A DNA stretch of 32,000 nt from Halomicronema hongdechloris C2206. Its GTDB lineage: Bacteria > Cyanobacteriota > Cyanobacteriia > Phormidesmidales > Phormidesmidaceae. Below are positions 550 to 32,000 of this stretch, piece by piece (within the stretch, counting starts at the first letter, position 1; each line of letters opens with the position of its first letter). A program made the position numbers and the translations under genes. The notes under the pieces were generated by a model. The model did not search any database. It saw nothing but the letters and a program-made list of their open reading frames with translations, and had not been told where the DNA came from. The stretch spans positions 3,960,001 to 3,992,000 of the forward strand of contig NZ_CP021983.2 of the NCBI RefSeq assembly GCF_002075285.3, written 5' to 3'.

Positions 550-1758
550 TCAGCTGACGGGTAGACTCGCTTTCAGTTCGAAGATGTGTTCGATGGTTTC
601 CTCTACAGAACGATCTGGGGTGGAGGCACCGGAAGTGATGCCTACTGTAATCGGACCGTCGGGCAGCCAGGGATCGTCTACAGTCAGGTCGCCGTGGAGC
701 CGCTTGTGTTCGATCCGGTTGCCGGGACCGATGCGGCTGGCACTGTCGATGTGATACGAAGGAATATTTCGATCAATGGCGATTTCTTGCAGGTGGGTCG
801 TGTTGGAGGAATTGTAGCCACCGATGACCACCATGAGATCTAGGGGCTGATCTACCAGGCCGAACATGGCATCTTGTCGCTCCTGGGTGGCATCACAGAT
901 GGTGTTAAAGCTGAGAAAGTGCTCGTTTAGATGGAGAGGGCCGTACTTTTCCAGCATGGTGCGCTCAAAGAGCTTACCGATTTGCTCGGTTTCGCCCTTG
1001 AGCATGGTGGTTTGGTTGGCGATCCCGACCTGTTGTAAATCGGTGTCGGGATCAAAGCCCTGGGAATAGGCGTTCTTAAATTTGGCTAAGAAGGTATCTC
1101 GGTCGCCTCCATGGAGGATGTAGTCGGCCACGTACTGAGCTTCTTCGAGGTTGAGGACGACTAAATATTTATGGGCGAAGGAACTGGTCGCGATGGTTTC
1201 TTCGTGGTTGTATTTGCCATGAATGATGGAGGTGTAGTCTTTTTTCTTGTGCTTTTCGACGGTGTTCCACACCTTAGAGACCCAAGGACAGGTGGTGTCG
1301 ACGATGGTGCAGCCGTTGTCGTTGAGTAACTGCATTTCTTGGACACTGGCTCCAAAGGCGGGCAGGATGACGACGTCCCCGGGGCCGACGACGGAGAAGT
1401 CTTTCTGGCCGTCTTTGACCTCAATGAAGTTGACTCGCATCTGCTGCAGGCGCTGGTTAACGCCAGGATTGTGAATGATTTCGTTGGTGATCCAGATGCG
1501 ATCGCAAGGAAACTGTTGCCGAGTCTCGTAGGCCATGGCTACCGCCCGCTCGACCCCCCAGCAGAAGCCAAAGGCCTCGGCTAACTTGATGGTGACATCA
1601 CCACGGGTGAGGGTGTACTGGTTATCCCGAATCGTCTGAATCAGGCTGCTGTTATATTCCGTCTGCATCTGACCGGCCACGTCGCTGTCATGGCCAAAGC
1701 CCTGGCGGAAGTATTTTTCAGACTTCTGTAGCGAGCGCTTGAATGCTTTAGTATCCAT
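550..1758 (-). CDS. ispH: 4-hydroxy-3-methylbut-2-enyl diphosphate reductase (IspH/LytB), MEP pathway
   Basis: 402 aa, ATG at 1758. It has the long cyanobacterial-type N-terminus and the Cys-containing blocks [22 protein letters not shown] and [12 protein letters not shown] that are typical of IspH. Confidence 0.95.
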
Positions 1759-7168: not shown

Positions 7169-8641
7169 TCAGCTGTTAGATGGACCATTGAGGCGAGGGC
7201 GGCGGCGATGCCACTCGGTAGCCTGCTCATAGGCATAGCCCACCTCGAACAGCAGATCCTCCCGCAGCACATTACTGATGAGCTGTAGGCCGATGGGCAA
7301 CCCTTGCTCATCAAAGCCGCAGGGCAAACTCATGGCCGGCAAACCGGCTAGGTTTACCGGGATCGTCATCAAGTCAGACAGATACATACCCAGGGGATCA
7401 TCGGTTTTTTCACCGGCCTGGAAGGCAGTGGTGGGCGAGGTGGGACACACCAACACATCCACCTGATTGAAGGCATTCTCGAAGTCTTGTTTGATCAGGG
7501 TCCGTACCTTCTGGGCCTTGAGATAGTAGGCGTCATAGTAGCCTGCCGAGAGGGCGTAGGTGCCAATCATGATCCGCCGTTTCACCTCGGCCCCAAATCC
7601 CTGGGCTCGGGTCCGGGTGTACATCGACATCAAACTAGTGTCGTCAGTGCGCAGACCATACTTGACGCCGTCATAACGGGCCAGGTTGGAAGAGGCTTCA
7701 GAGGGGGCAATGATGTAGTAGGCCGGTAGGCCATAGCGAAAGCGGGGACAGGAAATGACTTGAATCTCGGCCCCCAGCTCCTGCAACTGCTGAATTGCCT
7801 TTTCTACCGCTGCCTGCACCACCGGGTCTAGGCCACTGCCGAAGGTCTCCTGAATCACGCCGATGCGTCGCTTGCTGCGTTGGTTCAGGCGAGGCCGCAG
7901 GGCCTGACCGTAGTCGGGCACCGGTTGGGGAATACTGGTGGCATCCCGGGAATCGTGGCCAGCAACCGCCTGCAACAGAATGGCAGCATCCTCGACGGTG
8001 TAAGCCAGGGGACCGATCTGATCGAGGGAAGAGGCATAGGCTACCAGGCCATAGCGAGACACCCGACCATAGGTCGGCTTCAGCCCGACGATGCCGCAAA
8101 AGGAGGCCGGCTGCCGAATGGAGCCGCCGGTGTCGGACCCCAGGGCCGCTACACATTCGCCGGCGGCAACGGCGGCGGCGGATCCTCCAGAAGACCCTCC
8201 TGGTACCCGTTGGGGATCCCAAGGATTAGCCGTCAGTTGATAGGCAGAATTCTCCGTGGAGCTGCCCATGGCAAACTCATCCAGATTGGTCTTGCCCAGG
8301 CAGATGGCTCCCGCTTGGGCCAGGCGTTGGGTCACGGTGGACTCGTAAGGGGGGACAAAATTGCCCAACACCTTGGAGGCACAGGTGGTGCGGATGCCGT
8401 GGGTACAGAGGTTATCTTTCAATCCCAATGGGATGCCGCTGAGTAACCCCAGGGACTCTCCGGCCGCGAGCTGGACGTCTACCTGTTGGGCTTGGGCCAA
8501 GGCTAGCTCGCCAGTGACGGTCAAAAAGCTGTTTACGGTGGGTTCCAGTTGCTCTAGCTGAGCCAGATATTCCTGGGTAATCTCAACTGCCGAGCGTTCT
8601 TTATTGACCAGTTGCTGATGCAGTTCGCGAATCAAGGACAT
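7169..8641 (-). CDS. gatA: Glutamyl-tRNA(Gln) amidotransferase subunit A
   Basis: Amidase signature [14 protein letters not shown] and catalytic-Lys block LGLKDNL. The N-terminus [22 protein letters not shown] is typical of GatA. The start is taken at ATG 8641; the ORF-track start 8659 is a TTG six codons upstream. Confidence 0.95.
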
Positions 8642-8930
8642 CGGGGGCTCCTTCGGCAATGCGGCACCAAGATATCAGTATAAAGAGGTTTGGCAAGGGC
8701 GTATCGGCTTCCGGCCTGGAGGCCTAGATTTCCCTAAAGGGCGACCGCGGGTATCGTGCCAAACACCATGGCCGGGAAGTAGCCTCTATGGTAATCAGCA
8801 AGTCCTGGCGGAGCTAGATGAGGGCGGGCCTCTCTCGCCAGGATTGAGTCGTCACTGCGGGCCGGGTTCAAGGCGTTCCACGGGACTGGGTTGGCCTAGG
8901 GATAGGCCCTAAAAAGATGAGGATGAGGAA

Positions 8931-10253
8931 ATGGTCTGGGTTGGGAGCGAGTCGCGATGGGTAGCCAAGGCAGGGATCGGGGGGCTGGTGTTGGCCGCCT
9001 GCTATCCCCTGGTGCTCAGGGCCATGTCTTTGGCCCCCTCCAGTCATGTCCAGACCCGCGATTTGCCACAGTCTCTAGGCCCAGCAGAAACAGGGCTGGC
9101 TCCGGTGAGATTGATCTCGCTGCCAGGGACAACACAGATGGCCATCGCGGCTGATCCCTTGAGTCCAGCCATCCAGTGGTGGCGACCCCCATCGGATACC
9201 TTGGCCCGCGATGCCTATGGTCTTGCCCGCCGGTTGGCAGCTCAGGCGGTGGCCATGCAAGTAGGGCGGGGCAACGGACAGTTCGTCTGGCAACGGCAGG
9301 CCTTTCTCTGGCGAGCTGCGATCGCACAGTTGCAAACTATCCCTCCCACCTCCCCATTGGCCACCCTAGCCAGCCATGAGCAGCGTCTCTACGCAACTCG
9401 CCTGGCAGCGGTGACAGCGCGCCTGGAGGCCGTCGAAGCCGATGTGCTGGGGCAGATTGCAGGGCGCTTAGGATCGCCTAGGATCGTGCGCATCAGTGTT
9501 TGTCCACTGATGGGGACTTGCCGGCATCACCAAGGCCAAGTTCCCCCGGCCAGCCCGGCCAGTCTGATTAAGATGCCCATCGCCTTCGTGCTCCTGCAGC
9601 AGGTAGCCGCGACGGCTAGCGATCTGGGCGACTCGATCTATATTGATCCCCACAACTTCACGGAAAATGGGGCCCAGGCCCGCATCTTCGTGGACCGTCA
9701 TTATTCCTTAGGTCAGGTCATGGCCCGCATGATCGATGAAAGCAACAACATCGCCACCAATCAGTTAATCGACTATTTGGGCTGGGCTACCTTGAATCTA
9801 GCACTGCAGCAGCAGGGCTTCGCCACCATCCAGGTGCGCACCAAGCTGGTGGGGGCCGAGACCTCCCCCACCCAGAACATGGGCTGGGCCGCCAATACCC
9901 TGACCACGGCGGAGCTGACGGACCTGATGCGGTCTGTATATGCCCGTCGGGTGCCGGGGGCCGAGCACCTGATTCGAGCCCTAGCCACCCAAACCCATCG
10001 TGACTTTGGCTATGAGGCGCTGAGGGCGTTTCCGGCGCAGCGGGTGGCCTGGCTGGGGGAGAAGACCGGCCAAAATTCTCAGGTGATTGGTTCGACCTTA
10101 GCAGTGCGGGTTGATGGTCAGGTTTACCTGCTGACAGTCACCCTAGATCGCAGCGGTAATCAGCGGCGGCTGCGGCAAATTCTGCGGGATGTGGTCAGTT
10201 ATCTGCTCTACCGAGAGCCGCTGTTAGGGTCGCCCCTAGCCCAGGGCTCCTGA
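8931..10253 (+). CDS. Class A beta-lactamase-like serine hydrolase with an N-terminal membrane/extension domain
   Basis: 440 aa. The SxxK (PASLIKMP), SxN (ESNNIATNQL) and KTG (GEKTG) motifs occur in the canonical order in the C-terminal half. An N-terminal hydrophobic segment is present. Confidence 0.7.
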   Translation: MVWVGSESRWVAKAGIGGLVLAACYPLVLRAMSLAPSSHVQTRDLPQSLGPAETGLAPVRLISLPGTTQMAIAADPLSPAIQWWRPPSDTLARDAYGLARRLAAQAVAMQVGRGNGQFVWQRQAFLWRAAIAQLQTIPPTSPLATLASHEQRLYATRLAAVTARLEAVEADVLGQIAGRLGSPRIVRISVCPLMGTCRHHQGQVPPASPASLIKMPIAFVLLQQVAATASDLGDSIYIDPHNFTENGAQARIFVDRHYSLGQVMARMIDESNNIATNQLIDYLGWATLNLALQQQGFATIQVRTKLVGAETSPTQNMGWAANTLTTAELTDLMRSVYARRVPGAEHLIRALATQTHRDFGYEALRAFPAQRVAWLGEKTGQNSQVIGSTLAVRVDGQVYLLTVTLDRSGNQRRLRQILRDVVSYLLYREPLLGSPLAQGS

Positions 10254-16678: not shown

Positions 16679-16981
16679 ATGACAGATGCCCTCAGAACTG
16701 AACTAGCGGACATGGTGGATTCAGCTGAGTGGACTTGGTTGCAACCCCATGCCAATCGGGATGCCGTCGTTGTAGTCGATCAGGCTTTGGACTTGGTGGA
16801 CGTAGGGGTTGCGATCGCAACGGACAATGTCACCTCCGTAGACCACTGGATTGGCGAACAACTGCTGCGAAAACCCACCCTAGACCAGCTGATCCGATGG
16901 GAACGCACCGAGGGATTGCGATTTCAAGCCCTAATCGTGCCACCCTATGTGCTAGTACAACAGTCTCCAGAGGCGACCTAG
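16679..16981 (+). CDS. Small conserved protein, probably DUF2288 family
   Basis: 100 aa. The pattern AEWTWLQPH..RDAVVVV...LDLVDVGVAIA.DN...V.HWI....L.KP....FQALIV.PYVLVQ matches my recollection of DUF2288. The assignment has not been searched. Confidence 0.6.
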   Translation: MTDALRTELADMVDSAEWTWLQPHANRDAVVVVDQALDLVDVGVAIATDNVTSVDHWIGEQLLRKPTLDQLIRWERTEGLRFQALIVPPYVLVQQSPEAT

Positions 16982-17017
16982 GCCTACCTAGGCGATTCCC
17001 CCCTTTCCTGCACTTCT

Positions 17018-17979
17018 ATGCCCACTATCGCCCCCAATCACCCCGCCTGCATCCCTTCCAGACGCCCTGGTGTTGGCTCTATGCCCTGTGGAAGTTCTCG
17101 CGACCCCATACCATTATCGGCACCAGTTTCAGCGTGCTGGGGTTGTTTGCCATCGCCGCCGCTACCATCCCCGCCCCTGCCATCGCTTGGGGGGAGTTGG
17201 CCTGGGCCTGGTTGGCCTGTTTGGGGGGCAATCTCTACATTGTCGGCCTGAATCAGATTCAGGATATCGAGATCGATCGCATCAATAAGCCCCCACCTCC
17301 CCCTGGCATCCGGGGAATTTTCCCGCCGCGATGGCTGGTGGCTGGTAGGCGCAGCTGTGATCGTGGCCCTGGGGCCTAGGCGGGGGGGCGGGGGATATCT
17401 GTTTGCCACTGTTGCCATCAGTGTGGTCATCGGCACCGCCTACTCCCTGCCCCCTATACGGCTGAAGCGATTTGCCGTCTGGGCCTCGGCCTGCATCTTG
17501 GTGGTGCGCGGGGTGGTGGTGAATCTGGGGTTGTTTCTGTATTTCGCTGCCGCCCAGCAATCTCCAGGGATTCCCCCCATCATCTGGGCCTTGACCGGGT
17601 TTGTGGTGGTCTTTAGCGTTGCGATCGCAATTTTCAAAGACATCCCCGACATCGAAGGCGATCGTCAATATAATATCCGCACCTTTACCGTTCGCTTGGG
17701 GCAACGCACCGTCTTCAACCTAGCCCGCGGGTTACTCACCCTGGCTTACCGGCGGTATGATGCTAGCGGCTCCCTGGCTGCCAACCGTCAACCGTCTAGG
17801 GCTAGTCATGGCCCATGGTCTGGTCCTAGGCAGCTTTTGGTGGCTGAGTCAGCAGGTTATCTGGCCCCGCGCCCCCCCGCCGACGGCTCCGGTTTTCCTA
17901 TCGCAGCTTTTACCAGATCATCTGGGGGTTCTTTTTCCTGGAATACGTGATTGTCCCAGTAGCGTGTTGGCTACAGTAA
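17018..17979 (+). pseudogene. Homogentisate phytyltransferase (UbiA family, tocopherol pathway, slr1736/VTE2-like) interrupted by multiple frameshifts
   Basis: Homology is continuous only across frame hops. WKFSRPHTIIGT...GLNQIQDIEIDRINKP reads in frame 1 up to 17292. HLPLASGEFS...GTAYSLPPIRLKRF...FKDIPDIEGDRQYNIRTFTV reads in frame 2 over 17294-17749. GGMMLAAPWLPTVNRLGLVMAHGLVLGSFWWLSQQV reads in frame 0 over 17751-17858. FYQIIWGFFFLEYVIVPVACWLQ then reads in frame 1 to TAA 17977-17979. Premature stops fall at 17377-17379 and 17948-17950. Confidence 0.75.
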
Positions 17980-18010
17980 CTGTCTTGTTATCCATTGCCC
18001 TACACCGCCC

Positions 18011-19144
18011 ATGTACGACTGCATCATTGTCGGCGCTGGTCCCGCCGGCGGTACCGCTGCCTATCACCTAGCCAAACGGGGCCGCTCCGTCCTGGTATTG
18101 GAAAAGGCCACCCTGCCCCGCTATAAACCCTGCGGCGGCGGCGTCTCTCCCCAGGTGGCCCAATGGTTTGACTTCGACTTCACGCCAGCCATTTCGGCTC
18201 AGGTCACCACCGTCCGCTACACCTGGAACCTAGGAGCCCCAGTCACCAGCGAGATCACCACCGGCTCCCCGATCTGGATGGTGCGGCGGGACGAATTCGA
18301 CCATTTTCTGGTGCAACAGGCCGTAGGCCAGGGGGCAGAACTGCGCCACAGTACCAAAGCCACCGGTATTACCTTCGCCCATGACAGCTGGCAAGTCACC
18401 ACCGCCCAGGAGCCAGTGTCAGGCCGCTATCTGATCGCCGCCGATGGGGCTCGGGGGCCCCTAGCCAAGTGGCTCGGCTTTACCCAGCGGCAGCGCACCA
18501 GCGGTGGGCGCCTAGAAATTGAAACCCCGCGTGCCGGTGCCGGAGGCCCCACATCCCCCCATTTTGAGTTTGGCCTGTTGAAGAATGGCTATGTGTGGAA
18601 CTTCCCCAAGGCCGACGGCTACTCCCTAGGCAGTGGTATCTTTCGCCAGGGCAAGCGAGCTTCTCAGGATCTGAAACCGGCCCTGCACCAGATATGCTGC
18701 CAGTTTCAGGTGGATGCCGCTCAGGCACAGCCCCACGGCCATCCCCTCAACCTGTGGAATGGTTACCAACGGCTCCACACGCAGCAGGCTCTCTTAGCCG
18801 GCGAGGCCGCCTGTGTGGTCGATCCCTTCACCGCCGAGGGAATTCGACCGGCCATCTTCAGTGGCTTACAGGCGGCTCAGGCCATTGACGCGGCCTTGGG
18901 GGGCGACCTGCAGGCCCTAGAAGCCTACTCCCAGCGGCTAAACGAGAAATGGGGGGCGCAGACATGGCCCTGGGCTCGGCGCCTGGCCCAAGCCTTTTAT
19001 CAATGGCCCCGGCTGGGCTATCGGGTGGGCATCCAACGGCCCTCCGGCACCGAACAGATGGTCAAGGTCCTCTGCGGCGAACGGCGCTATGCCGATGTGG
19101 TGCATCGGGCCCTGCGTCGCCTCAGCGGCGGGGTACTGGCCTAG
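18011..19144 (+). CDS. Geranylgeranyl-reductase-family FAD-dependent oxidoreductase
   Basis: 377 aa. N-terminal dinucleotide fold YDCIIVGAGPAGGTAAYHLAKRG..VLVLEK, then PRYKPCGGGVS, DGARGP and a C-terminal GEAACVVDPFTAEGI block. These are typical of the GGR (TIGR-type) family. It starts 31 nt after the HPT stop. Confidence 0.8.
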   Translation: MYDCIIVGAGPAGGTAAYHLAKRGRSVLVLEKATLPRYKPCGGGVSPQVAQWFDFDFTPAISAQVTTVRYTWNLGAPVTSEITTGSPIWMVRRDEFDHFLVQQAVGQGAELRHSTKATGITFAHDSWQVTTAQEPVSGRYLIAADGARGPLAKWLGFTQRQRTSGGRLEIETPRAGAGGPTSPHFEFGLLKNGYVWNFPKADGYSLGSGIFRQGKRASQDLKPALHQICCQFQVDAAQAQPHGHPLNLWNGYQRLHTQQALLAGEAACVVDPFTAEGIRPAIFSGLQAAQAIDAALGGDLQALEAYSQRLNEKWGAQTWPWARRLAQAFYQWPRLGYRVGIQRPSGTEQMVKVLCGERRYADVVHRALRRLSGGVLA

Positions 19145-20325: not shown

Positions 20326-21567
20326 TCAAGTAGTGTACTCGGCATTGATGCGGATATAATCGTAGCTGAGATCACAGCCCCAGGCCTGCCCCCGTCCCGA
20401 TCCAGTCCCCACGGACACGATGATGTCCACCGTATCGTCTTGCAGGTAAGCTCCCGCCGCCGCTTGCTTCAGATAGGCGCTCGCCGCCGATCGATCGAAG
20501 GGTTGAGGCTGGCCGCCATCCATCAGGACAAACTCTCCCAATTGAATGCGGAGATCCCCCTGATCAAATCCTACCCCAGCTCGGCCTGCGGCCCCGGCAA
20601 TGCGACCCCAGTTAGGATCGCGGCCAAATATGGCTGACTTGACCAAAGAAGACCCAGCGATGGTACGGGCAATCTGGCGCGCCGCTTCATCATGGGCGGT
20701 GCCCTGGACCGTGATCTGTATTAAGCAGGTAGCCCCCTCCCCATCCCGGGCAATGGCTTTGGCTAGATGGGTACACACAGCGGTCAGCATCCCTTCTAGG
20801 AGATCGGCCTCGGGGCCAGCTTCGGTAATGGCCGGGGTACGGGAAGCACCATTGGCCAGGGCAATCAAGCTATCGTTCGTGCTAGTATCGCCATCGATGC
20901 TGATCTGGTTGAAGCTAAGCTCAGCGGCCCGCTGCACCATGGCCTGCCATAGGGGGGGTGAAATACTGGCGTCGCAAGTGATGAAGGCCAGCATGGTGGC
21001 TAGGTTGGGATGGATCATGCCCGAGCCTTTGGCAATGCCGCCGAGGCGCACCGGGCGATGGGCGATCTCAGCTTCCACGGCCCCAGACTTAGCCACCAAA
21101 TCTGTGGTCAAGATGGCCTGGGCCGCCGCCGCCGATCCCGCCTCAGATAGGGCGGCTACAACGGCGGGAATGCCCTGCCTCAGGGCAGCCATGTTGAGGC
21201 ATTGGCCAATCACGCCAGTCGAGGCAACCATGACCGCATCGGCTGGAATTCCTAAGGCTTGGGCGACGAGATCGGCACTTGCAATGGTGTCTACCCAGCC
21301 CTGGCTACCGGTGCAAGCATTGGCCTGACCCGCATTGCAGAGAATGGCCCGAGCGACAGATTTCGCCTCCAGGCGTTGGCGGCAGTAGTCGACACAGGCG
21401 GCCCGCACTTGACTCTGGGTAAAAATGCCCGCTGCGATCGCATCTCCCTCAGAGACAATCAGCGCTAAATCCGAGGCTCCCGAGGGTTTTAAGCCGGCAG
21501 CAATCCCCGCTGCCCTAAATCCCTTAGGGGCGCTGACACCCCCCTCAACCATCCGCCATTGCGTCAT
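20326..21567 (-). CDS. argJ: Bifunctional ornithine acetyltransferase / N-acetylglutamate synthase
   Basis: KGFRAAGIAAGLKPSG..DLALI near the N-terminus, the autoproteolytic site context NLATMLAFITCDA, and the C-terminus SYDYIRINAEYTT. ATG is at 21567; the ORF-track first codon at 21570 is TTG. Confidence 0.95.
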   Translation of the reverse strand: MTQWRMVEGGVSAPKGFRAAGIAAGLKPSGASDLALIVSEGDAIAAGIFTQSQVRAACVDYCRQRLEAKSVARAILCNAGQANACTGSQGWVDTIASADLVAQALGIPADAVMVASTGVIGQCLNMAALRQGIPAVVAALSEAGSAAAAQAILTTDLVAKSGAVEAEIAHRPVRLGGIAKGSGMIHPNLATMLAFITCDASISPPLWQAMVQRAAELSFNQISIDGDTSTNDSLIALANGASRTPAITEAGPEADLLEGMLTAVCTHLAKAIARDGEGATCLIQITVQGTAHDEAARQIARTIAGSSLVKSAIFGRDPNWGRIAGAAGRAGVGFDQGDLRIQLGEFVLMDGGQPQPFDRSAASAYLKQAAAGAYLQDDTVDIIVSVGTGSGRGQAWGCDLSYDYIRINAEYTT

Positions 21568-21764
21568 CAAATCACCCTCAATCGGCCCTGTTTTCCCGGG
21601 ATTATATCAGGGGTGATGTCTACCACGGCCCCAAACGGCACCACCTAGCCAATCGCCACAAGGAATATCAGCCGCCGACCGATTGATGAAGCAACTCACA
21701 GCCAAGCCTTAACCCCCAAGCATCGCAGGCAATCGCCGATGGCCATGTTGGCAGCAGGGCTGCT

Positions 21765-23560: not shown

Positions 23561-23746
23561 ATGGAGAAACAATACGACAGCCGCATCTATGTAGAGCAAA
23601 TGGCCTTGATGCTGGGCTTATCCTTGCCACCTGACAGCCAAATGGGGGTCATAGACGCCTTCGAGCAACTGCGAGCGGTGGCGCAACCGGTGCTGAACTT
23701 CCCCTTACCGGATGATTTGGAAGTGGCTCCCATCTTTGAACCATGA
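23561..23746 (+). CDS. AtzG-like small protein (DUF4089-type), probable small subunit of the downstream amidase
   Basis: 61 aa. The pattern YVEQMALMLGLSLPPD....V...FEQLRAVAQPVLNFPLPDDLEVAPIFEP matches my recollection of AtzG/DUF4089 proteins (...A..LGL.L......V..N...L......L..FPLPD..EPAPVF). Its stop overlaps the amidase start in ATGA at 23743-23746. Confidence 0.6.
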   Translation: MEKQYDSRIYVEQMALMLGLSLPPDSQMGVIDAFEQLRAVAQPVLNFPLPDDLEVAPIFEP

Positions 23747-25149
23747 CATCTACCCCGGATGCCTTAGGGATTGCCAACTCTATCCGCCGTGGCGAACGGA
23801 CGGCGACCGAAGTCATTGCCGCAAGCATAGCTCAGATTGAAGCCCTAAATCCCCAGCTCAATTGTTTCACGGCTATCACTGCTGACATGGCCCGAGCGAT
23901 GGCAGCCGATATGGACCGGCGCCTCAGTACCGGCGAAGACCCAGGCCCCCTAGCCGGGGTTCCCTTCGCCGTAAAAAATCTCTTCGATATTAAGGGGCTC
24001 ATTACCTTAGCCGGTTCCCGCATTCATCGCGAGCGCCCTCCAGCTCACCAAGATGCCACCCTGATTACTCGTCTGAAACAAGCTGGCGCTATCTTGGTAG
24101 GGGCCCTCAATATGGATGAGTATGCCTATGGCTTCGTGACCGTCAACAGCCACTATGGCATTACCCCAAATCCCCACGATGTAACTCGCATAGCCGGTGG
24201 CTCCTCAGGAGGGTCGGCAGCCGCCATAGCCGCAGGGGTAGTGCCCCTGACCCTAGGATCGGATACGAATGGCTCCATCCGGGTTCCCGCTGCCTTGTGC
24301 GGAGTTTACGGATTTAAGCCCACCTACGGCCGTCTGTCCCGAGCCGGAACCTACCCCTTAGCCAATAGCCTTGATCATGTGGGGCCCCTGACTCGCTCGG
24401 TGCGAGATATGGCCGCTGCCTACGATGCCTTACAAGGCCCTGATCACCGCGATTCCCTCTGCGGTGATCGGCCCTCAGAACCCGTGAGTCCAGGGTTGGA
24501 GCAGGGCATTGAGGGGATGCGTATCGCCGTGGCTGGAGAGTATTTCAGCCAAGCAATGGAGCCGGAGGTAGCTAGGGCTGTAGACCAGGTGGCAGAGGCT
24601 TTGGGAGCTACAAAGCGAGTAGTCATCCCAGAGTCTACCCGAGCTCGGGCAGCTGCCTATGTGATTACGGCCAGTGAGGGGAGTCATTTGCACCTATCTC
24701 GCCTGCAACGTCGCCCCATGGAGTTTGACCCGGCTACCCGAGATCGCTTCTTGGCGGGAGCCATGATACCGGCAAGCTGGTATATCCAAGCCCAGCGATT
24801 TCGGCGTTGGTACCGAGATCGGATCCGATTATTATTCCAGTCAGTCGATATTGTACTGGCGCCAACGACGCCCTGTGTCGCTCCTGCCTTGGCCCAGACT
24901 ACCCTATCGATCAATGGAGAAGAGATGCCAGTGCGAGCTCATTTGGGCCTTTATACCCAGCCCCTATCTTTCGTAGGACTGCCAATTCTCTCAGTTCCGG
25001 TGCATCAACCGGGAAACCTGCCGGTGGGAGTGCAGGTCATTGCCGCTCCCTACCAAGAAGAACGAGTATTACGGGTCGCAGCCCACCTAGAGGCTATGGG
25101 CATCACGTCAGCCCCTGTTGCTGCTGTGGATGGCGATTGCCCTATCTGA
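23743..25149 (+). CDS. Amidase-signature enzyme, AtzE-like (GatA paralogue)
   Basis: 468 aa. Catalytic-Lys block VPFAVKNLFDIKG and amidase signature [14 protein letters not shown]...GSDTNGSIRVPAALCGVYGFKPTYGR. It is translationally coupled to the 61-aa ORF upstream. Confidence 0.85.
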   Translation: MTSTPDALGIANSIRRGERTATEVIAASIAQIEALNPQLNCFTAITADMARAMAADMDRRLSTGEDPGPLAGVPFAVKNLFDIKGLITLAGSRIHRERPPAHQDATLITRLKQAGAILVGALNMDEYAYGFVTVNSHYGITPNPHDVTRIAGGSSGGSAAAIAAGVVPLTLGSDTNGSIRVPAALCGVYGFKPTYGRLSRAGTYPLANSLDHVGPLTRSVRDMAAAYDALQGPDHRDSLCGDRPSEPVSPGLEQGIEGMRIAVAGEYFSQAMEPEVARAVDQVAEALGATKRVVIPESTRARAAAYVITASEGSHLHLSRLQRRPMEFDPATRDRFLAGAMIPASWYIQAQRFRRWYRDRIRLLFQSVDIVLAPTTPCVAPALAQTTLSINGEEMPVRAHLGLYTQPLSFVGLPILSVPVHQPGNLPVGVQVIAAPYQEERVLRVAAHLEAMGITSAPVAAVDGDCPI

Positions 25150-26820: not shown

Positions 26821-28044
26821 TCAAGGATCGATCCAGCGGCCGTCGGCTTTAATTAAATTAATCAACTCAACCACCCCCTGATCTTCAGGAACTCGCTTGA
26901 TCTCCTCACGACCTCGGTAGAGGGAAATATAACCTGGGGTCTTGCCCACATAACCGTAGTCAGCATCGGCCATCTCCCCAGGGCCATTGACAATACAGCC
27001 CATGACAGCGATGTCGAGCCCTGTGAGGTGACTGGTGGCCTGACGCACCTCACGCAGCACATCTTCTAGATTGAATAGAGTGCGGCCACAGGACGGACAG
27101 GCCACATATTCCACCATGGTTTTGCGTAGACCTAAGGCCTGCAAAATGCTGTAGCAGACGGGAATTTCCTTTTCCGGAGCTTCTGTCAGAGAAACGCGAA
27201 TGGTATCGCCAATGCCTTCGGCCAGTAGAGTGCCAATGCCAGCAGTAGACTTAATCCGGCCATATTCCCCGTCGCCAGCCTCGGTGACGCCTAAGTGCAG
27301 AGGATAGTCCATGCCTAACTCATTCATGCGCTGCACCATGAGTCGATAGGCGGCTAGCATAACGGGTACTCGCGAGGCTTTCAGGGAAATAACCAGGTTG
27401 TAGAACTCCAGCGATTCACAGATACGGATAAATTCCAAGGCTGATTCCACCATGCCCTCTGGGGTATCGCCATAGGTGAAAAGCATGCGCTCAGCCAAAG
27501 AACCATGGTTCACCCCGATGCGCATGGCCTTGTCCTGCTGCTTGAGGGACAACACCAGGGGCTCTAACGTCTGACGAATTTTGTCTCCAATTTCCTGAAA
27601 CTCATCTGGGGTGTATTCCGAACGTCCTGGTTTCGGTTTTTCAAAGACATATAGCCCGGGGTTAATTCGCACCTTATCCACGTGCTTGGCTACTTCCAGG
27701 GCAATTTTCATGCCGTTGTGATGCACATCGGCCACCAGGGGAACGGGCTGATAGGTCGCCGCCAATTGTGCCTTGATTTGCGCCAGGGCTCGGGCATGGG
27801 CCATGCTGGGTACCGTCACCCGGACAATTTCACAGCCGATTTCATGGAGACGGCGAATGGCAGCGACAGAGCCCTCCACATCTAAGGTGTCCTCGTTGAT
27901 CATCGATTGCACCACCACCGGATAGCCACCGCCAATGGTGGTGTCGCCTACCCGCACTGGACGAGTTTTGCGACGATGAATCGTGGTGTCGAAGGCCGCC
28001 TCAGAAGGCGCAGTGGTCGTAACAGGAGAGGGCAGGGTCTGCAT
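26821..28044 (-). CDS. ispG: 4-hydroxy-3-methylbut-2-en-1-yl diphosphate synthase (ferredoxin), IspG/GcpE
   Basis: [28 protein letters not shown], and the cluster ligands CPSCGRT and [12 protein letters not shown]. The start is taken at ATG 28044 (MQTLPSP). The ORF-track start 28071 is a TTG nine codons upstream. Confidence 0.95.
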
Positions 28045-28303
28045 AGCACTCACGGAATCGGATAGGGGCAATTGGGAACTCGATTTACTACTCAGGGTGC
28101 CACAGAATGGCCGTGTTTATGCGCGATGTGGGTGACATATCACGTTGCTCGGCTAGGATCGGCCCTAGCTAGGCTAAACCCTCTCCTGTCATAGAGGTGG
28201 CTGATGGCGATGTTGGCGGACAATCAGAATTTAAGGAGTGCTGGTGTGAAGTCAAGATCGATCGCAAGACTGTAGGTACCAATAATGGGGATTGGATTTA
28301 GAT

Positions 28304-30746: not shown

Positions 30747-30815
30747 GCATGATCCTCTCAGACAATTTTCAGCCCATCTCAGTACGCTGAGGCCCAGTCC
30801 CTAGTAGAGAACGCC

Positions 30816-32000
30816 ATGGAATCTCTTCGACCCATTGTTAAAGATCTGGTTCTGCTTGGGGGCGGTCATTCCCATGCCATTGTGCTGCGCCAGTGGGGGA
30901 TGCGACCTTTGGCAGGGGTGCAGATCACCTTGATCACCAACCTGGCCGATACTCCCTACTCTGGCATGCTGCCGTCCCATGTGGCGGGTCTCTACGATTT
31001 TGATCAGGCTCATATTGACCTACGGCCCCTGACCCGTTTCGCTCAGGCCCGTCTCTTCATGGACCGAGTCATTGGTCTCGATTTAGAGCGGCGACGGGTC
31101 ATCTGTGCCCACCATCCCCCCGTCGCCTATGATGTTCTGTCCATTGATACGGGCAGTACCCCGGCGATGGTGGCAGTGCCTGGGGCAGCTGATCATGCTG
31201 TGCCGGCCAAGCCTGTCCCTCAGCTATTGCAGGCCTGGGCCAGGGTGCGCCAGCAGCTAGAGGCGTCACCAGAGCGGCCTCTCACCATCGCCGTGGTTGG
31301 TGGCGGCATCGGCGGGGTAGAACTGACCCTGAACATGCAGGCGCGGTTGCAGAGACGACTAAAAGAGCTAGGGCGGCCACAGGATCAGGTCACATTTCAT
31401 CTGTTTCATCGCCGGGCCGAACTGGCCCCGGAGCGGTCTCGGGCCACTCGTCATTATCTGCAGCGACTGTGCCTACGACGGCGAATTCAGCTGCACCTGC
31501 AGCAAACAGTTGCTGCGGTGGAGACTATTGGCGGACCTTTGCCCTATCGAGTGCGCTGTGAGTCGGGGTTGACAGTGGCGTGCGATCGCATATTTTGGGT
31601 CACCCAAGCGGCGGCTCCCGACTGGGTACGACAGTCTGGTCTGGCTAACGATTCCCAAGGGTTCATTGCCGTTGCCGATACCCTCCAGAGTCGCTCCCAC
31701 CCCAATGTGTTCGCCGCTGGAGATGTGGCCACCATGGTTAACCATCCCCGACCCAAGGCCGGAGTCTTCGCCGTGCGTCAGGGCAAACCATTAAGCCTTA
31801 ACCTGCGGCGCCACCTGCAAGGTCAACCGCTACAACCCTTCAGGCCTCAACGGCAATTCTTGACCCTGATCGATACGGGCCGCGGCACCGCCATCGCCTC
31901 CCGGGGGCCTTTCGTGGCCGAGTCCTGTCTATTCCGATACTGGAAAGACCACATCGATCAAAAATTCATGGCTCTGTTCCGCGACTTTCCCGAAATGGGG
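30816..32000 (+). CDS. FAD/NAD(P)-binding pyridine nucleotide-disulfide oxidoreductase family protein, 3'-truncated by the window edge
   Basis: This ORF is absent from the ORF track because it has no stop. I translated 395 codons from ATG 30816 to base 32000 without meeting a stop. It has two dinucleotide folds (DLVLLGGGHSHAIVL and IAVVGGGIGGVELTL) and a GDVA block (FAAGDVATM). Confidence 0.8.
   Translation, partial: MESLRPIVKDLVLLGGGHSHAIVLRQWGMRPLAGVQITLITNLADTPYSGMLPSHVAGLYDFDQAHIDLRPLTRFAQARLFMDRVIGLDLERRRVICAHHPPVAYDVLSIDTGSTPAMVAVPGAADHAVPAKPVPQLLQAWARVRQQLEASPERPLTIAVVGGGIGGVELTLNMQARLQRRLKELGRPQDQVTFHLFHRRAELAPERSRATRHYLQRLCLRRRIQLHLQQTVAAVETIGGPLPYRVRCESGLTVACDRIFWVTQAAAPDWVRQSGLANDSQGFIAVADTLQSRSHPNVFAAGDVATMVNHPRPKAGVFAVRQGKPLSLNLRRHLQGQPLQPFRPQRQFLTLIDTGRGTAIASRGPFVAESCLFRYWKDHIDQKFMALFRDFPEMG

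What the first reader, a model, noticed from the sequence alone, without database searches (positions are those of the whole stretch)
17018..17979. Tocopherol prenyltransferase gene readable only through four to five single-base frame hops, while every neighbouring gene is intact
The UbiA-family protein can be followed end to end, but only by changing frame. It starts at ATG 17018 in frame 2 (MPTIAP). It moves to frame 1 from about 17035 (..PRLHPFQTPWCWLYALWKFSRPHTIIGT...GLNQIQDIEIDRINKP, up to 17292). It returns to frame 2 over 17294-17749 (HLPLASGEFS...FKDIPDIEGDRQYNIRTFTV...LLTLAY). It then moves to frame 0 over 17751-17858 (GGMMLAAPWLPTVNRLGLVMAHGLVLGSFWWLSQQV). It probably returns to frame 2 over 17859-17911 (LAPRPPADGSGFPIAAF). 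It finishes in frame 1 (YQIIWGFFFLEYVIVPVACWLQ, stop 17977-17979). Uncorrected reading stops at TAG 17377-17379 and TGA 17948-17950. Several junctions sit on homopolymers: C5 17031-17035, C5 17290-17294 and T4 17908-17911, with C7 17872-17878 as an alternative site for the last shift. Both Asp-rich prenyltransferase motifs and the C-terminal FYQ.IW..FFLEY block are preserved. This argues for very recent decay, slippage-prone tracts or localised sequence error rather than an old pseudogene. In roughly 27 kb of other coding sequence in the window I saw no comparable disruption.
Basis: partly seen in the sequence, partly recalled or inferred. Interest (0 to 1): 0.7.

Follow-up and report, generated by a model that had tools for sequence, protein, structure and literature searches.

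The report
Frameshifted vitamin-E prenyltransferase gene (HPT)

Summary
Window 17018-17979 is the orthologue of homogentisate phytyltransferase (HPT; slr1736/VTE2). It is readable only across four single-base frame changes (frames 2>1>2>0>1), not five.

Four one-base edits restore a 319-codon ORF with no stop. That ORF scores 397 bits on NCBI's HPT equivalog model (cut-off 226). All 26 other genes in the window are intact.

The window is from Halomicronema hongdechloris C2206, a finished hybrid 454/PacBio/Solexa assembly. The closest relative is a fully syntenic metagenome lineage with an intact 320-aa HPT.

The repaired protein shows no sign of relaxed selection:
- It keeps all 72 columns invariant in 120 intact HPTs.
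- It fits the family profile as well as its intact sister (481.7 vs 483.8 bits).
- It has no excess of lineage-specific changes (15 vs 18).

The disruption is therefore very recent on an evolutionary scale. I lean to a genuine young pseudogene (about 0.55) over a local consensus error (about 0.38). Only reads or PCR can decide. Programmed recoding is unsupported. Interest is low.

The parts
17018..17979 (+). Homogentisate phytyltransferase (HPT, slr1736/VTE2 orthologue), 962 nt, disrupted by four 1-nt indels
   Evidence: Pfam UbiA 1e-37 on the stitched protein. NCBIfam NF009525 397 bits against a cut-off of 226. 76% aa identity to the intact syntenic orthologue P0001.
17018..17043 (+). Segment 1, frame 2: start codon and MPTIAPNH(P). 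The ATGCCCA start is shared with the orthologue.
17031..17044 (+). Indel 1: one base missing relative to the orthologue (frame 2 to 1). It lies somewhere in the C5/C4 runs of the variable N-terminus, and the exact site cannot be resolved.
   Evidence: DNA alignment gap near 17041. The dynamic programme places it at 17033-17036. There is no canonical start codon in frame 1 between 16982 and about 17125 (reading).
17044..17289 (+). Segment 2, frame 1: RLHPFQ...WKFSRPHTIIGTS...NQIQDIEIDRINK, including the first Asp-rich motif (17251-17292)
   Evidence: tblastn HSP in frame 1, 17038-17289, 81% identity.
17290..17294 (+). Indel 2: one surplus C in a C5 run (the orthologue has C4), frame 1 to 2, inside the invariant NKPHLP motif
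   Evidence: (all five queries, all three penalties).
17294..17749 (+). Segment 3, frame 2: HLPLASGEF...IGTAYSLPPIRLKR...KDIPDIEGDR (second Asp-rich motif 17636-17665)...LLTLAY
   Evidence: The literal ORF 17357-17950 covers only UbiA profile positions 90-196 of 250.
17374..17382 (+). Codons for Pro-Arg-Arg (aa 120-122) in a hydrophobic stretch. These residues are never seen there in 120 intact HPTs. This is the only candidate for substitution-level damage.
   Evidence: The alternative reading, a compensating indel pair, gains only 1.7 bits.
17749..17750 (+). Indel 3: one surplus base (TACCGG against TA-CGG), frame 2 to 0. It is not in a long homopolymer.
17751..17871 (+). Segment 4, frame 0: GGMMLAAPWLPTVNRLGLV...FWWLSQQVIWPRAP
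   Evidence: tblastn HSP in frame 3(=0), 17751-17891.
17872..17878 (+). Indel 4: one surplus base in or next to the C7 run, frame 0 to 1, in the variable C-terminal loop (resolvable only to about 17860-17892)
17873..17979 (+). Segment 5, frame 1: ...SYRSFYQIIWGFFFLEYVIVPVACWLQ and stop TAA 17977-17979, aligned with the orthologue's stop
16679..16981 (+). Intact upstream neighbour (DUF2288, 100 aa), ending 36 nt before the HPT start
   Evidence: dN/dS 0.045.
18011..19144 (+). Intact downstream neighbour: geranylgeranyl reductase family protein, 377 aa, 100% identical to a Halomicronema hongdechloris C2206 protein. It starts 31 nt after the HPT stop.

Best explanation
This is the single-copy orthologue of homogentisate phytyltransferase (HPT) in Halomicronema hongdechloris C2206. 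HPT is the UbiA-fold membrane enzyme that joins homogentisate to phytyl diphosphate. That step commits the cell to tocopherol (vitamin E) synthesis.

In this sequence the gene is a very young pseudogene. Four independent one-base indels (one loss, three gains, mostly in C runs) break the frame.
- Translation from the conserved ATG ends after 77 codons.
- No remaining ORF holds both Asp-rich catalytic motifs together with the C-terminal FYQxIWxxFFLEY block.
- No active enzyme can therefore be made, and the strain should lack tocopherols.

Inferred course of events: the gene is unusually rich in G/C homopolymers and so is prone to slippage. One frameshift inactivated a gene that is dispensable in a low-light, far-red niche. 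Further slippage indels then accumulated neutrally, before base substitutions became detectable.

Shown here: gene identity, the four indels, intact neighbours and the absence of other decay. Inferred: that the indels are in the organism and not only in the assembly, the order of events, and the tocopherol-null phenotype.
For: Identity: Pfam UbiA, the HPT equivalog at 397 bits against a cut-off of 226, and hits that sources name HPT.

Four indels: DNA alignment to the intact syntenic orthologue, tblastn frames, and the frameshift-aware dynamic programme with five queries. Four one-base edits give 960 nt, 319 codons and no stop.

Confinement to this gene:
- The neighbours ending 36 nt upstream and starting 31 nt downstream are intact, as are all 26 other genes.
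- 86 homopolymer runs of 5 or more in 25.5 kb of other coding DNA carry no frameshift.
- P(all four indels in this gene) is 1.7e-6 by length and 2e-4 by share of runs.
- This pattern is what selection produces if only this gene is dispensable.

Other points:
- The indel at 17749/50 is not in a long homopolymer.
- The gene has 12 runs of 5 or more, against 5 in its orthologue. The other 17 genes have 65 against 69.
- The assembly has 72x coverage from three chemistries, and the authors report verifying frameshifts elsewhere.
- Pro-Arg-Arg at aa 120-122 is never seen in 120 homologues.
- In the sister lineage five contigs differ by 0-4 nt yet encode the identical protein, so the gene is under purifying selection there.
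- A Synechocystis review assigns tocopherols roles in protection from lipid peroxidation and in chill-light tolerance, and names Hpt as the committing enzyme (PMC7133116).
- From my own recollection of the papers cited there, not checked here: slr1736 knock-outs are viable.
Against: No substitution-level decay at all:
- 0 of 72 invariant columns changed.
- 6 departures at columns conserved at 95% or more, the same as the intact sister, with 5 shared.
- 15 window-unique against 18 sister-unique changes. The control gene gives 9 against 10.
- Profile score 481.7 against 483.8 bits.

By my estimate this bounds neutral divergence since inactivation at about 0.02 per site or less. The indel-to-substitution ratio in this gene would then have to be about 0.3 or more. 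That is higher than the roughly 0.1-0.2 I recall for bacterial pseudogenes and mutation-accumulation lines (memory, not tested), although the run-rich sequence raises the expected ratio.

Three gains against one loss runs against the usual deletion bias. All events are exactly 1 nt, which is also the signature of 454 or PacBio errors.

No independent sequence of this strain or of a closer relative could be found.
Confidence: 0.55

Rival explanations
1. Local consensus error. The organism's HPT gene is intact and functional. The four indels were introduced during the hybrid 454/PacBio RS/36-nt Solexa assembly and manual contig joining, for example at a former contig end or join covered by poor read ends, corrected PacBio reads or a single Sanger read.
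For: - All four events are exactly 1 nt, three are surplus C's, and two or three sit in C runs of 5-7.
- The repaired protein cannot be told apart from a gene under full purifying selection.
- The genome paper reports only 17x 454 and 14x PacBio coverage, poor 454 reads at contig ends, chimeric PacBio reads, small misassemblies and manual joining in Gap5 (PMC6416890).
- Many frameshift 'pseudogenes' in public genomes are assembly artefacts that depend on platform, assembler and coverage (PMC11017572).
- The span of the cluster (about 850 nt) is about one Sanger read or one contig-end patch (inference).
Against: - A general error process is excluded: there are no frameshifts in 25.5 kb of other coding DNA with 86 runs of 5 or more.
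- It needs a low-quality patch that happens to fit inside one gene, with intact genes within 40 nt on each side. I estimate the chance of that at about 0.2.
- The G+C content of the gene (59.7%) is lower than that of the intact neighbours GGR-family (63.8%) and Beta-lactamase2 (61.8%), so coverage bias gives no reason for a patch here.
- One indel (TAC-C-GG) is not a homopolymer miscall.
- 41.5x Solexa coverage should correct homopolymer errors.
Confidence: 0.38
2. Old pseudogene: the pathway was lost long ago and the gene has been drifting neutrally since.
For: Pairwise dN/dS to the sister orthologue is 0.19, against a median of about 0.05-0.06 for the neighbours.
Against: - The elevated dN/dS is shared by both lineages: 15 against 18 unique changes, and mean identity to 119 other HPTs is 0.580 for both.
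- No invariant residue is lost.
- There is no in-frame stop after repair.
- There are no large deletions, and the start and stop codons are kept in register with the orthologue.
Confidence: 0.01
3. Programmed recoding or transcript slippage: the gene is still expressed as full-length HPT because ribosomes or RNA polymerase shift at the four sites. Two of the +1 sites have a CCC-C context, which I recall as prone to +1 slippage.
For: The repaired frame looks fully constrained. The +1 sites at 17290-94 and 17872-78 read CCC-C.
Against: - Four separate events of two kinds (-1 and +1) would all have to succeed in each translation.
- The site at 17749/50 (TAC-C-GGC) and the -1 site have no slippery motif that I can see (reading).
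- None of the intact homologues examined needs a shift: the 120 database proteins and the six syntenic HPT loci.
- Rfam finds no element in the window.
Confidence: 0.01
4. A different gene, or a set of split genes, occupies the locus: antisense ORFs, or functional HPT fragments made as separate polypeptides.
For: ORFs of 132 and 140 aa lie on the minus strand. Plus-strand ORFs of 216 and 197 aa overlap HPT.
Against: - The antisense and off-frame ORFs hit no Pfam family.
- The two plus-strand ORFs carry only UbiA profile positions 6-55 and 90-196 of 250, followed by out-of-frame tails.
- The first of them would have to start inside the DUF2288 gene.
Confidence: 0.01

Closest known systems
Homogentisate phytyltransferase (Hpt, Synechocystis slr1736; plant VTE2); NCBIfam NF009525, Pfam PF01040 UbiA
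   Same: - The repaired protein matches the equivalog model end to end (positions 7-309 of 310, 397 bits).
- It keeps both Asp-rich motifs (NQIQDIEID, KDIPDIEGD) and the C-terminal FYQxIW..FFLEY block.
- It keeps all 72 columns that are invariant in 120 intact HPTs.
   Different: The reading frame is broken four times, so no full-length product is encoded as written. Every one of the 120 database homologues and the six syntenic HPT loci found (L001-L006) is uninterrupted.
Intact syntenic orthologue P0001 on metagenome contigs L001-L005 (JGI 3300023218 and 3300022719; Logan SRR23862439, SRR23862444 and SRR23862446)
   Same: The gene order is the same over about 21 kb, from the amidase gene to gcpE. 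The HPT start and stop codons are in register. Identity is 76% aa and 77% nt after repair. Both lie at the same distance from other HPTs (0.580).
   Different: P0001 is one ORF of 320 codons with 5 homopolymer runs of 5 or more. The window copy has four frame-breaking indels, one in-frame 3-nt loss and 12 such runs.
Frameshift pseudogenes of dispensable genes in bacteria, and the spurious frameshift 'pseudogenes' produced by assembly errors (Cooley and Wright 2024, PMC11017572)
   Same: One-base indels, mostly in homopolymers, disrupt an otherwise conserved gene. The two causes cannot be told apart without reads.
   Different: Four indels in one gene with no detectable substitution decay is unusual for natural decay. 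Strict confinement to one gene in a window that is otherwise clean is unusual for assembly error.

Membership tests
Homogentisate phytyltransferase (NCBIfam NF009525 equivalog) | Whole-protein score above the curated cut-off (226 bits) with end-to-end coverage | tested here: met
   397.3 bits, profile positions 7-309 of 310, on the frame-repaired protein. The next best UbiA-type model scores 75.8 bits, below its own cut-off.
Homogentisate phytyltransferase / UbiA superfamily | Two Asp-rich motifs (NQxxDxxxD and KDxxDxxGD) and the UbiA domain | tested here: met
   NQIQDIEID at 17251-17277 (frame 1) and KDIPDIEGD at 17636-17662 (frame 2). Pfam PF01040 1.3e-37, positions 6-245 of 250. 0 departures at 72 invariant columns.
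Homogentisate phytyltransferase (functional gene) | One uninterrupted ORF encoding all transmembrane helices and both motifs | tested here: not met
   Four frame changes. The literal product from the ATG is 77 aa. The largest ORFs cover UbiA positions 6-55 and 90-196 only.
Homogentisate phytyltransferase (functional gene) | Enzyme activity, or tocopherol in the cell | not testable with these tools
   The papers found that mention both H. hongdechloris and tocopherol looked from their titles and abstracts like reviews or unrelated work, and I did not open them. The genome paper does not mention tocopherol.
Genuine (evolutionary) pseudogene | ORF disrupted relative to intact orthologues at the syntenic position | tested here: met
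Genuine (evolutionary) pseudogene | Relaxed selection: excess lineage-specific or conserved-site substitutions | tested here: not met
   15 vs 18 unique changes (p=0.73). 6 vs 6 departures at columns conserved at 95% or more. 481.7 vs 483.8 bits. This is compatible only with very recent inactivation.
Genuine (evolutionary) pseudogene | Indels present in the organism's DNA (reads, or an independent assembly) | not testable with these tools
   The source genome and closer relatives are absent from every collection searched.
Assembly or sequencing artefact | Error-type signature: 1-nt indels at homopolymers, with no other change | tested here: inconclusive
   All four are 1 nt and two or three are in C runs of 5-7, but one is at TAC-C-GG. 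No errors appear in 86 other runs of 5 or more in the window.
Programmed ribosomal frameshifting / recoding | The shift site is conserved in orthologues, with a slippery motif and a stimulatory element | tested here: not met
   All intact homologues examined are uninterrupted: 120 database proteins and six syntenic HPT loci. There is no Rfam hit. Two of the four sites have no slippery context that I can see (reading).

The most novel reading that the evidence does not exclude
The gene is still functional. Full-length HPT would be made from the frameshifted template by multiple recoding events, either +1 slippage at the CCC-C contexts or transcript slippage in the C runs. That would explain why the repaired frame shows full purifying selection despite four frame breaks. 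A milder version is that the type strain for chlorophyll f is a natural, recent tocopherol-null. This would tie life in a far-red, low-light niche to loss of the lipid antioxidant.
Probability: 0.01. Interest if true: 0.85.

Novelty: new member of a known kind. Interest (0 to 1): 0.18.

Why it matters
If the indels are real, the reference chlorophyll-f organism Halomicronema hongdechloris C2206 cannot make tocopherols. That would matter for photoprotection and lipid-peroxidation studies in far-red photoacclimation. It would also be one more case of tocopherol loss in cyanobacteria.

If they are errors, this is a small correction to a reference genome. It would also warn that this 2010s hybrid assembly may hold local indel clusters.

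Either way, no new kind of biological system is involved. The useful general point is methodological: a frameshifted gene whose repaired product is as conserved as its intact sister should not be called an evolutionary pseudogene without read support.

Tried and rejected
1. Independent sequence of the strain or of a closer relative. Exact-protein look-ups for three window proteins found nothing. Scans of genome contigs and metagenome contigs with the adjacent GGR-family protein found nothing closer than 70% and 65%. The homologue search found only the source protein itself (100%) and the L001 clade (86-88%).

2. Proteome and annotation tables of the genome paper. The stored supplement is cut before this locus: plsX, argJ, homogentisate and tocopherol give no hits. 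One GO term for 4-hydroxyphenylpyruvate dioxygenase appears in a misaligned column and is unusable.

3. Rejected.

4. A hidden compensating indel pair around the G7/G5 runs that would explain Pro-Arg-Arg at aa 120-122. It gains only 1.7 bits, and the dynamic programme never chose it even at a penalty of -8.

5. Elevated dN/dS (0.19) as evidence of relaxed selection. Rejected, because the excess is symmetric between the two lineages.

6. G+C-driven coverage loss as a reason for a local error patch. The gene is not the most G+C-rich in the window.

7. RNA elements and tRNAs: none.

8. Antisense or alternative ORFs: no family hits.

9. Status of the other tocopherol genes (HPPD, VTE1, VTE3, VTE4) in this genome. 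I could not test this. They are not in the window, and I had no query close enough to pull the strain's copies into a top-120 hit list, so I left the third homologue search unused.

Full report
WHAT IS THERE.

Window 17018-17979 (+ strand) encodes a UbiA-family prenyltransferase that can be read only by changing frame. The frame-stitched protein hits Pfam UbiA (PF01040, 1.3e-37, profile 6-245 of 250). Its best database relatives are proteins that sources name homogentisate phytyltransferase (HPT). After repair it scores 397.3 bits on the NCBIfam equivalog NF009525 'homogentisate phytyltransferase' (cut-off 226, profile 7-309 of 310). Every other UbiA-type model falls below its own cut-off. HPT joins homogentisate to phytyl diphosphate and commits the cell to tocopherol synthesis (review PMC7133116).

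SOURCE AND CLOSEST RELATIVE.

The adjacent protein (18011-19144) is 100% identical to 'Geranylgeranyl diphosphate reductase [Halomicronema hongdechloris C2206]', on a contig of 5,577,845 bp. That length is the finished genome of Chen et al. 2019 (PMC6416890). The genome itself is absent from the searchable collections.

The nearest relative is an uncultured lineage found on five metagenome contigs (L001-L005).
- Its gene order is identical over about 21 kb.
- It carries an uninterrupted 320-aa HPT, P0001.
- The five contigs differ by 0-4 nt in this gene, yet all encode the same protein. The gene is therefore under purifying selection there.

THE FRAME BREAKS.

The DNA alignment of 17018-17979 to L001:10001-10963 (77% identity) shows, in the window:
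- one base missing near 17041, in the variable N-terminus;
- one extra C in the C5 run 17290-94 (the orthologue has C4);
- an in-frame 3-nt loss near 17555;
- one extra base at 17749/50 (TACCGG against TA-CGG);
- one extra base at the C7 run 17872-78.

tblastn with P0001 returns HSPs in frames 1, 2, 0 and 1. I wrote a protein-to-DNA dynamic programme that allows frameshifts and ran it with five intact HPTs at three penalties. It always gave the same three +1 shifts: in the codons at 17287-90 and 17747-50, and at 17880-92. With the two closest orthologues (P0001, P0002), at the two lower penalties, it also gave the -1 at 17033-36. It gave no other consistent shift; single odd extra shifts appeared only at the lowest penalty with three of the more distant queries (P0003, P0028, P0035).

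Four one-base edits give 960 nt, which is 319 codons plus a stop, with no internal stop. The path is therefore frame 2 > 1 > 2 > 0 > 1, which is four hops.

- The DNA alignment has no gap there.
- Frame 1 reads SYRSFYQIIW from 17896, identical to the orthologue.
- The five-hop protein scores 5 bits lower on the family profile.

As written, translation from the conserved ATG stops after 77 codons (TGA 17249-51). The two largest HPT-bearing ORFs cover only UbiA profile positions 6-55 and 90-196 of 250. Antisense ORFs hit no family.

THE NEIGHBOURS.

All 17 genes with an orthologue on L001 give a single in-frame HSP. Sixteen are 81-99% identical at the amino-acid level, and Beta-lactamase2 is 66%. 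The remaining ORFs of the window carry full-length Pfam domains, and a further gene runs intact off the 3' end. The genes on either side of HPT end 36 nt before it and start 31 nt after it.

If four indels fell at random on the 26.5 kb of coding DNA, all four would land in this gene with P = 1.7e-6. Weighted by homopolymer runs of 5 or more (12 here, 86 elsewhere), P = 2e-4.

HOW OLD IS THE DAMAGE?

Pairwise dN/dS to the orthologue is 0.19, against about 0.05-0.06 for typical neighbours. That excess is not specific to the window lineage.
- With the consensus of 119 other HPTs as outgroup, the window has 15 unique changes and P0001 has 18 (p = 0.73). Both are 0.580 identical on average to the others.
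- The control gene gives 9 against 10.
- The repaired protein keeps all 72 columns that are invariant in 120 intact HPTs.
- At columns conserved at 95% or more it departs 6 times, exactly as P0001 does, and 5 of those departures are shared.
- Against a profile built without P0001, it scores 481.7 bits and P0001 scores 483.8.

From 0 hits at about 165 non-synonymous sites in invariant codons, and from the relative-rate counts, I estimate neutral divergence since inactivation at about 0.02 per site or less (inference). Divergence from the sister is dS = 0.79 in total, or roughly 0.4 per lineage. An old pseudogene is excluded.

The only candidate for substitution damage is Pro-Arg-Arg at aa 120-122. 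It lies in a hydrophobic stretch where none of 120 homologues has such residues. Reading it as a compensating indel pair gains only 1.7 bits.

REAL OR ARTEFACT?

The gene is the most homopolymer-rich in the window. It has 12.5 runs of 5 or more per kb, against 3.4 per kb elsewhere. It has 12 such runs against 5 in its orthologue, whereas the other 17 genes have 65 against 69. It is therefore prone to slippage both in the cell and in the sequencer.

For a real, young pseudogene:
- The indels are strictly confined to one gene, with intact genes within 40 nt on both sides. Selection produces this pattern automatically. An error patch fits it only by chance, which I estimate at about 0.2.
- The gene is dispensable (from memory, Synechocystis slr1736 knock-outs are viable).
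- One indel lies outside any long run.
- Coverage is 72x from three platforms, and the authors report verifying frameshifts elsewhere.

For an artefact:
- All events are exactly 1 nt, and three are surplus C's.
- There is no substitution decay, so the indel-to-substitution ratio would have to be about 0.3 or more.
- The assembly history includes 17x 454 and 14x early PacBio coverage, 36-nt Solexa reads, poor 454 read ends at contig ends, chimeric PacBio reads and manual joining.
- Many frameshift pseudogenes are known to be assembly artefacts (PMC11017572).

I weigh these at about 0.55 real, 0.38 artefact, and a few per cent for everything else. This split is a judgement, not a measurement.

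Recoding is not supported. The 120 database homologues and the six syntenic HPT loci are all uninterrupted. Two of the four sites lack any slippery context that I can see. Rfam finds nothing.

COMPARISON WITH WHAT IS KNOWN, AND VERDICT.

By every sequence criterion the locus is an HPT gene, but it fails the criterion of an uninterrupted ORF. It is a frameshifted copy of a well-characterised enzyme gene at its ancestral, syntenic position. That is a known kind of thing, whether it turns out to be a young pseudogene or an assembly error.

The genome paper does not mention it: 'pseudogene' and 'tocopherol' each occur 0 times. The papers found that mention both this strain and tocopherol looked like reviews or unrelated work from their titles and abstracts, and I did not open them.

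Its interest score is too high. The decisive test is simple: read mapping or PCR across 16950-18050, and a tocopherol assay.

Noticed in passing
window 17018-19144; L001-L005; L006:633-2865: HPT lies directly upstream of a geranylgeranyl-reductase-family paralogue. That protein scores 235 bits on TIGR02032 but stays below the ChlP/BchP cut-offs. The adjacency is seen only in H. hongdechloris, its sister metagenome lineage and MAG Co-bin13. 141 other cyanobacterial loci with at least 1.5 kb upstream of this reductase gene have no HPT there. A functional link, such as side-chain reduction for tocopherol, is possible but untested. The reductase gene is intact here (dN/dS 0.089).
   Followed up: partly
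window 17018-17979 and 20326-21570: Excess of long G/C homopolymers relative to the sister lineage. HPT has 12 against 5 runs of 5 or more (5 against 1 runs of 6 or more). argJ has 6 against 0 yet is intact. The other genes are at parity (65 against 69 in total).
   Followed up: partly
window 17374-17382: Pro-Arg-Arg replaces the hydrophobic residues (consensus Leu-Ala-Ala/Leu) found at these three positions in all 120 intact HPTs. 9 of the 12 surrounding nucleotides differ from the sister orthologue, next to G7 and G5 runs. The cause is unexplained: it could be a local mutation cluster, an error, or lineage-specific tolerance.
   Followed up: partly
whole window: The HIP1 octamer GCGATCGC occurs 17 times in 32 kb, where I estimate about 1 from base composition. 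This is typical of many cyanobacteria. The palindrome CCTAGG occurs 18 times against an estimated 10, including two copies just upstream of the HPT start (16977, 16987) and two inside the gene (17375, 17825).
   Followed up: no
window 8931-10253: The Beta-lactamase2-family gene is the fastest-evolving intact gene of the region. It has 67% aa identity to the sister lineage and dN/dS 0.25, against about 0.05 for most neighbours.
   Followed up: no
window 23561-25149 and 7169-8659: A 61-aa AtzG-like ORF overlaps by 4 nt the start of an amidase gene (23743-25149). A second, paralogous amidase (35% identity) lies at 7169-8659. Both arrangements are conserved in the sister contig.
   Followed up: no
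window 550-1758 and 26821-28071: Two genes of the MEP isoprenoid pathway, lytB/ispH and gcpE/ispG, lie in the same 32-kb window as HPT. Both are intact. They are not adjacent to HPT, and I tested no link.
   Followed up: no
window about 30750-32000: A plus-strand reading frame stays open for at least 416 codons and runs off the 3' end of the window. The ORF listing does not list it because it is cut by the window end. I did not identify it.
   Followed up: no
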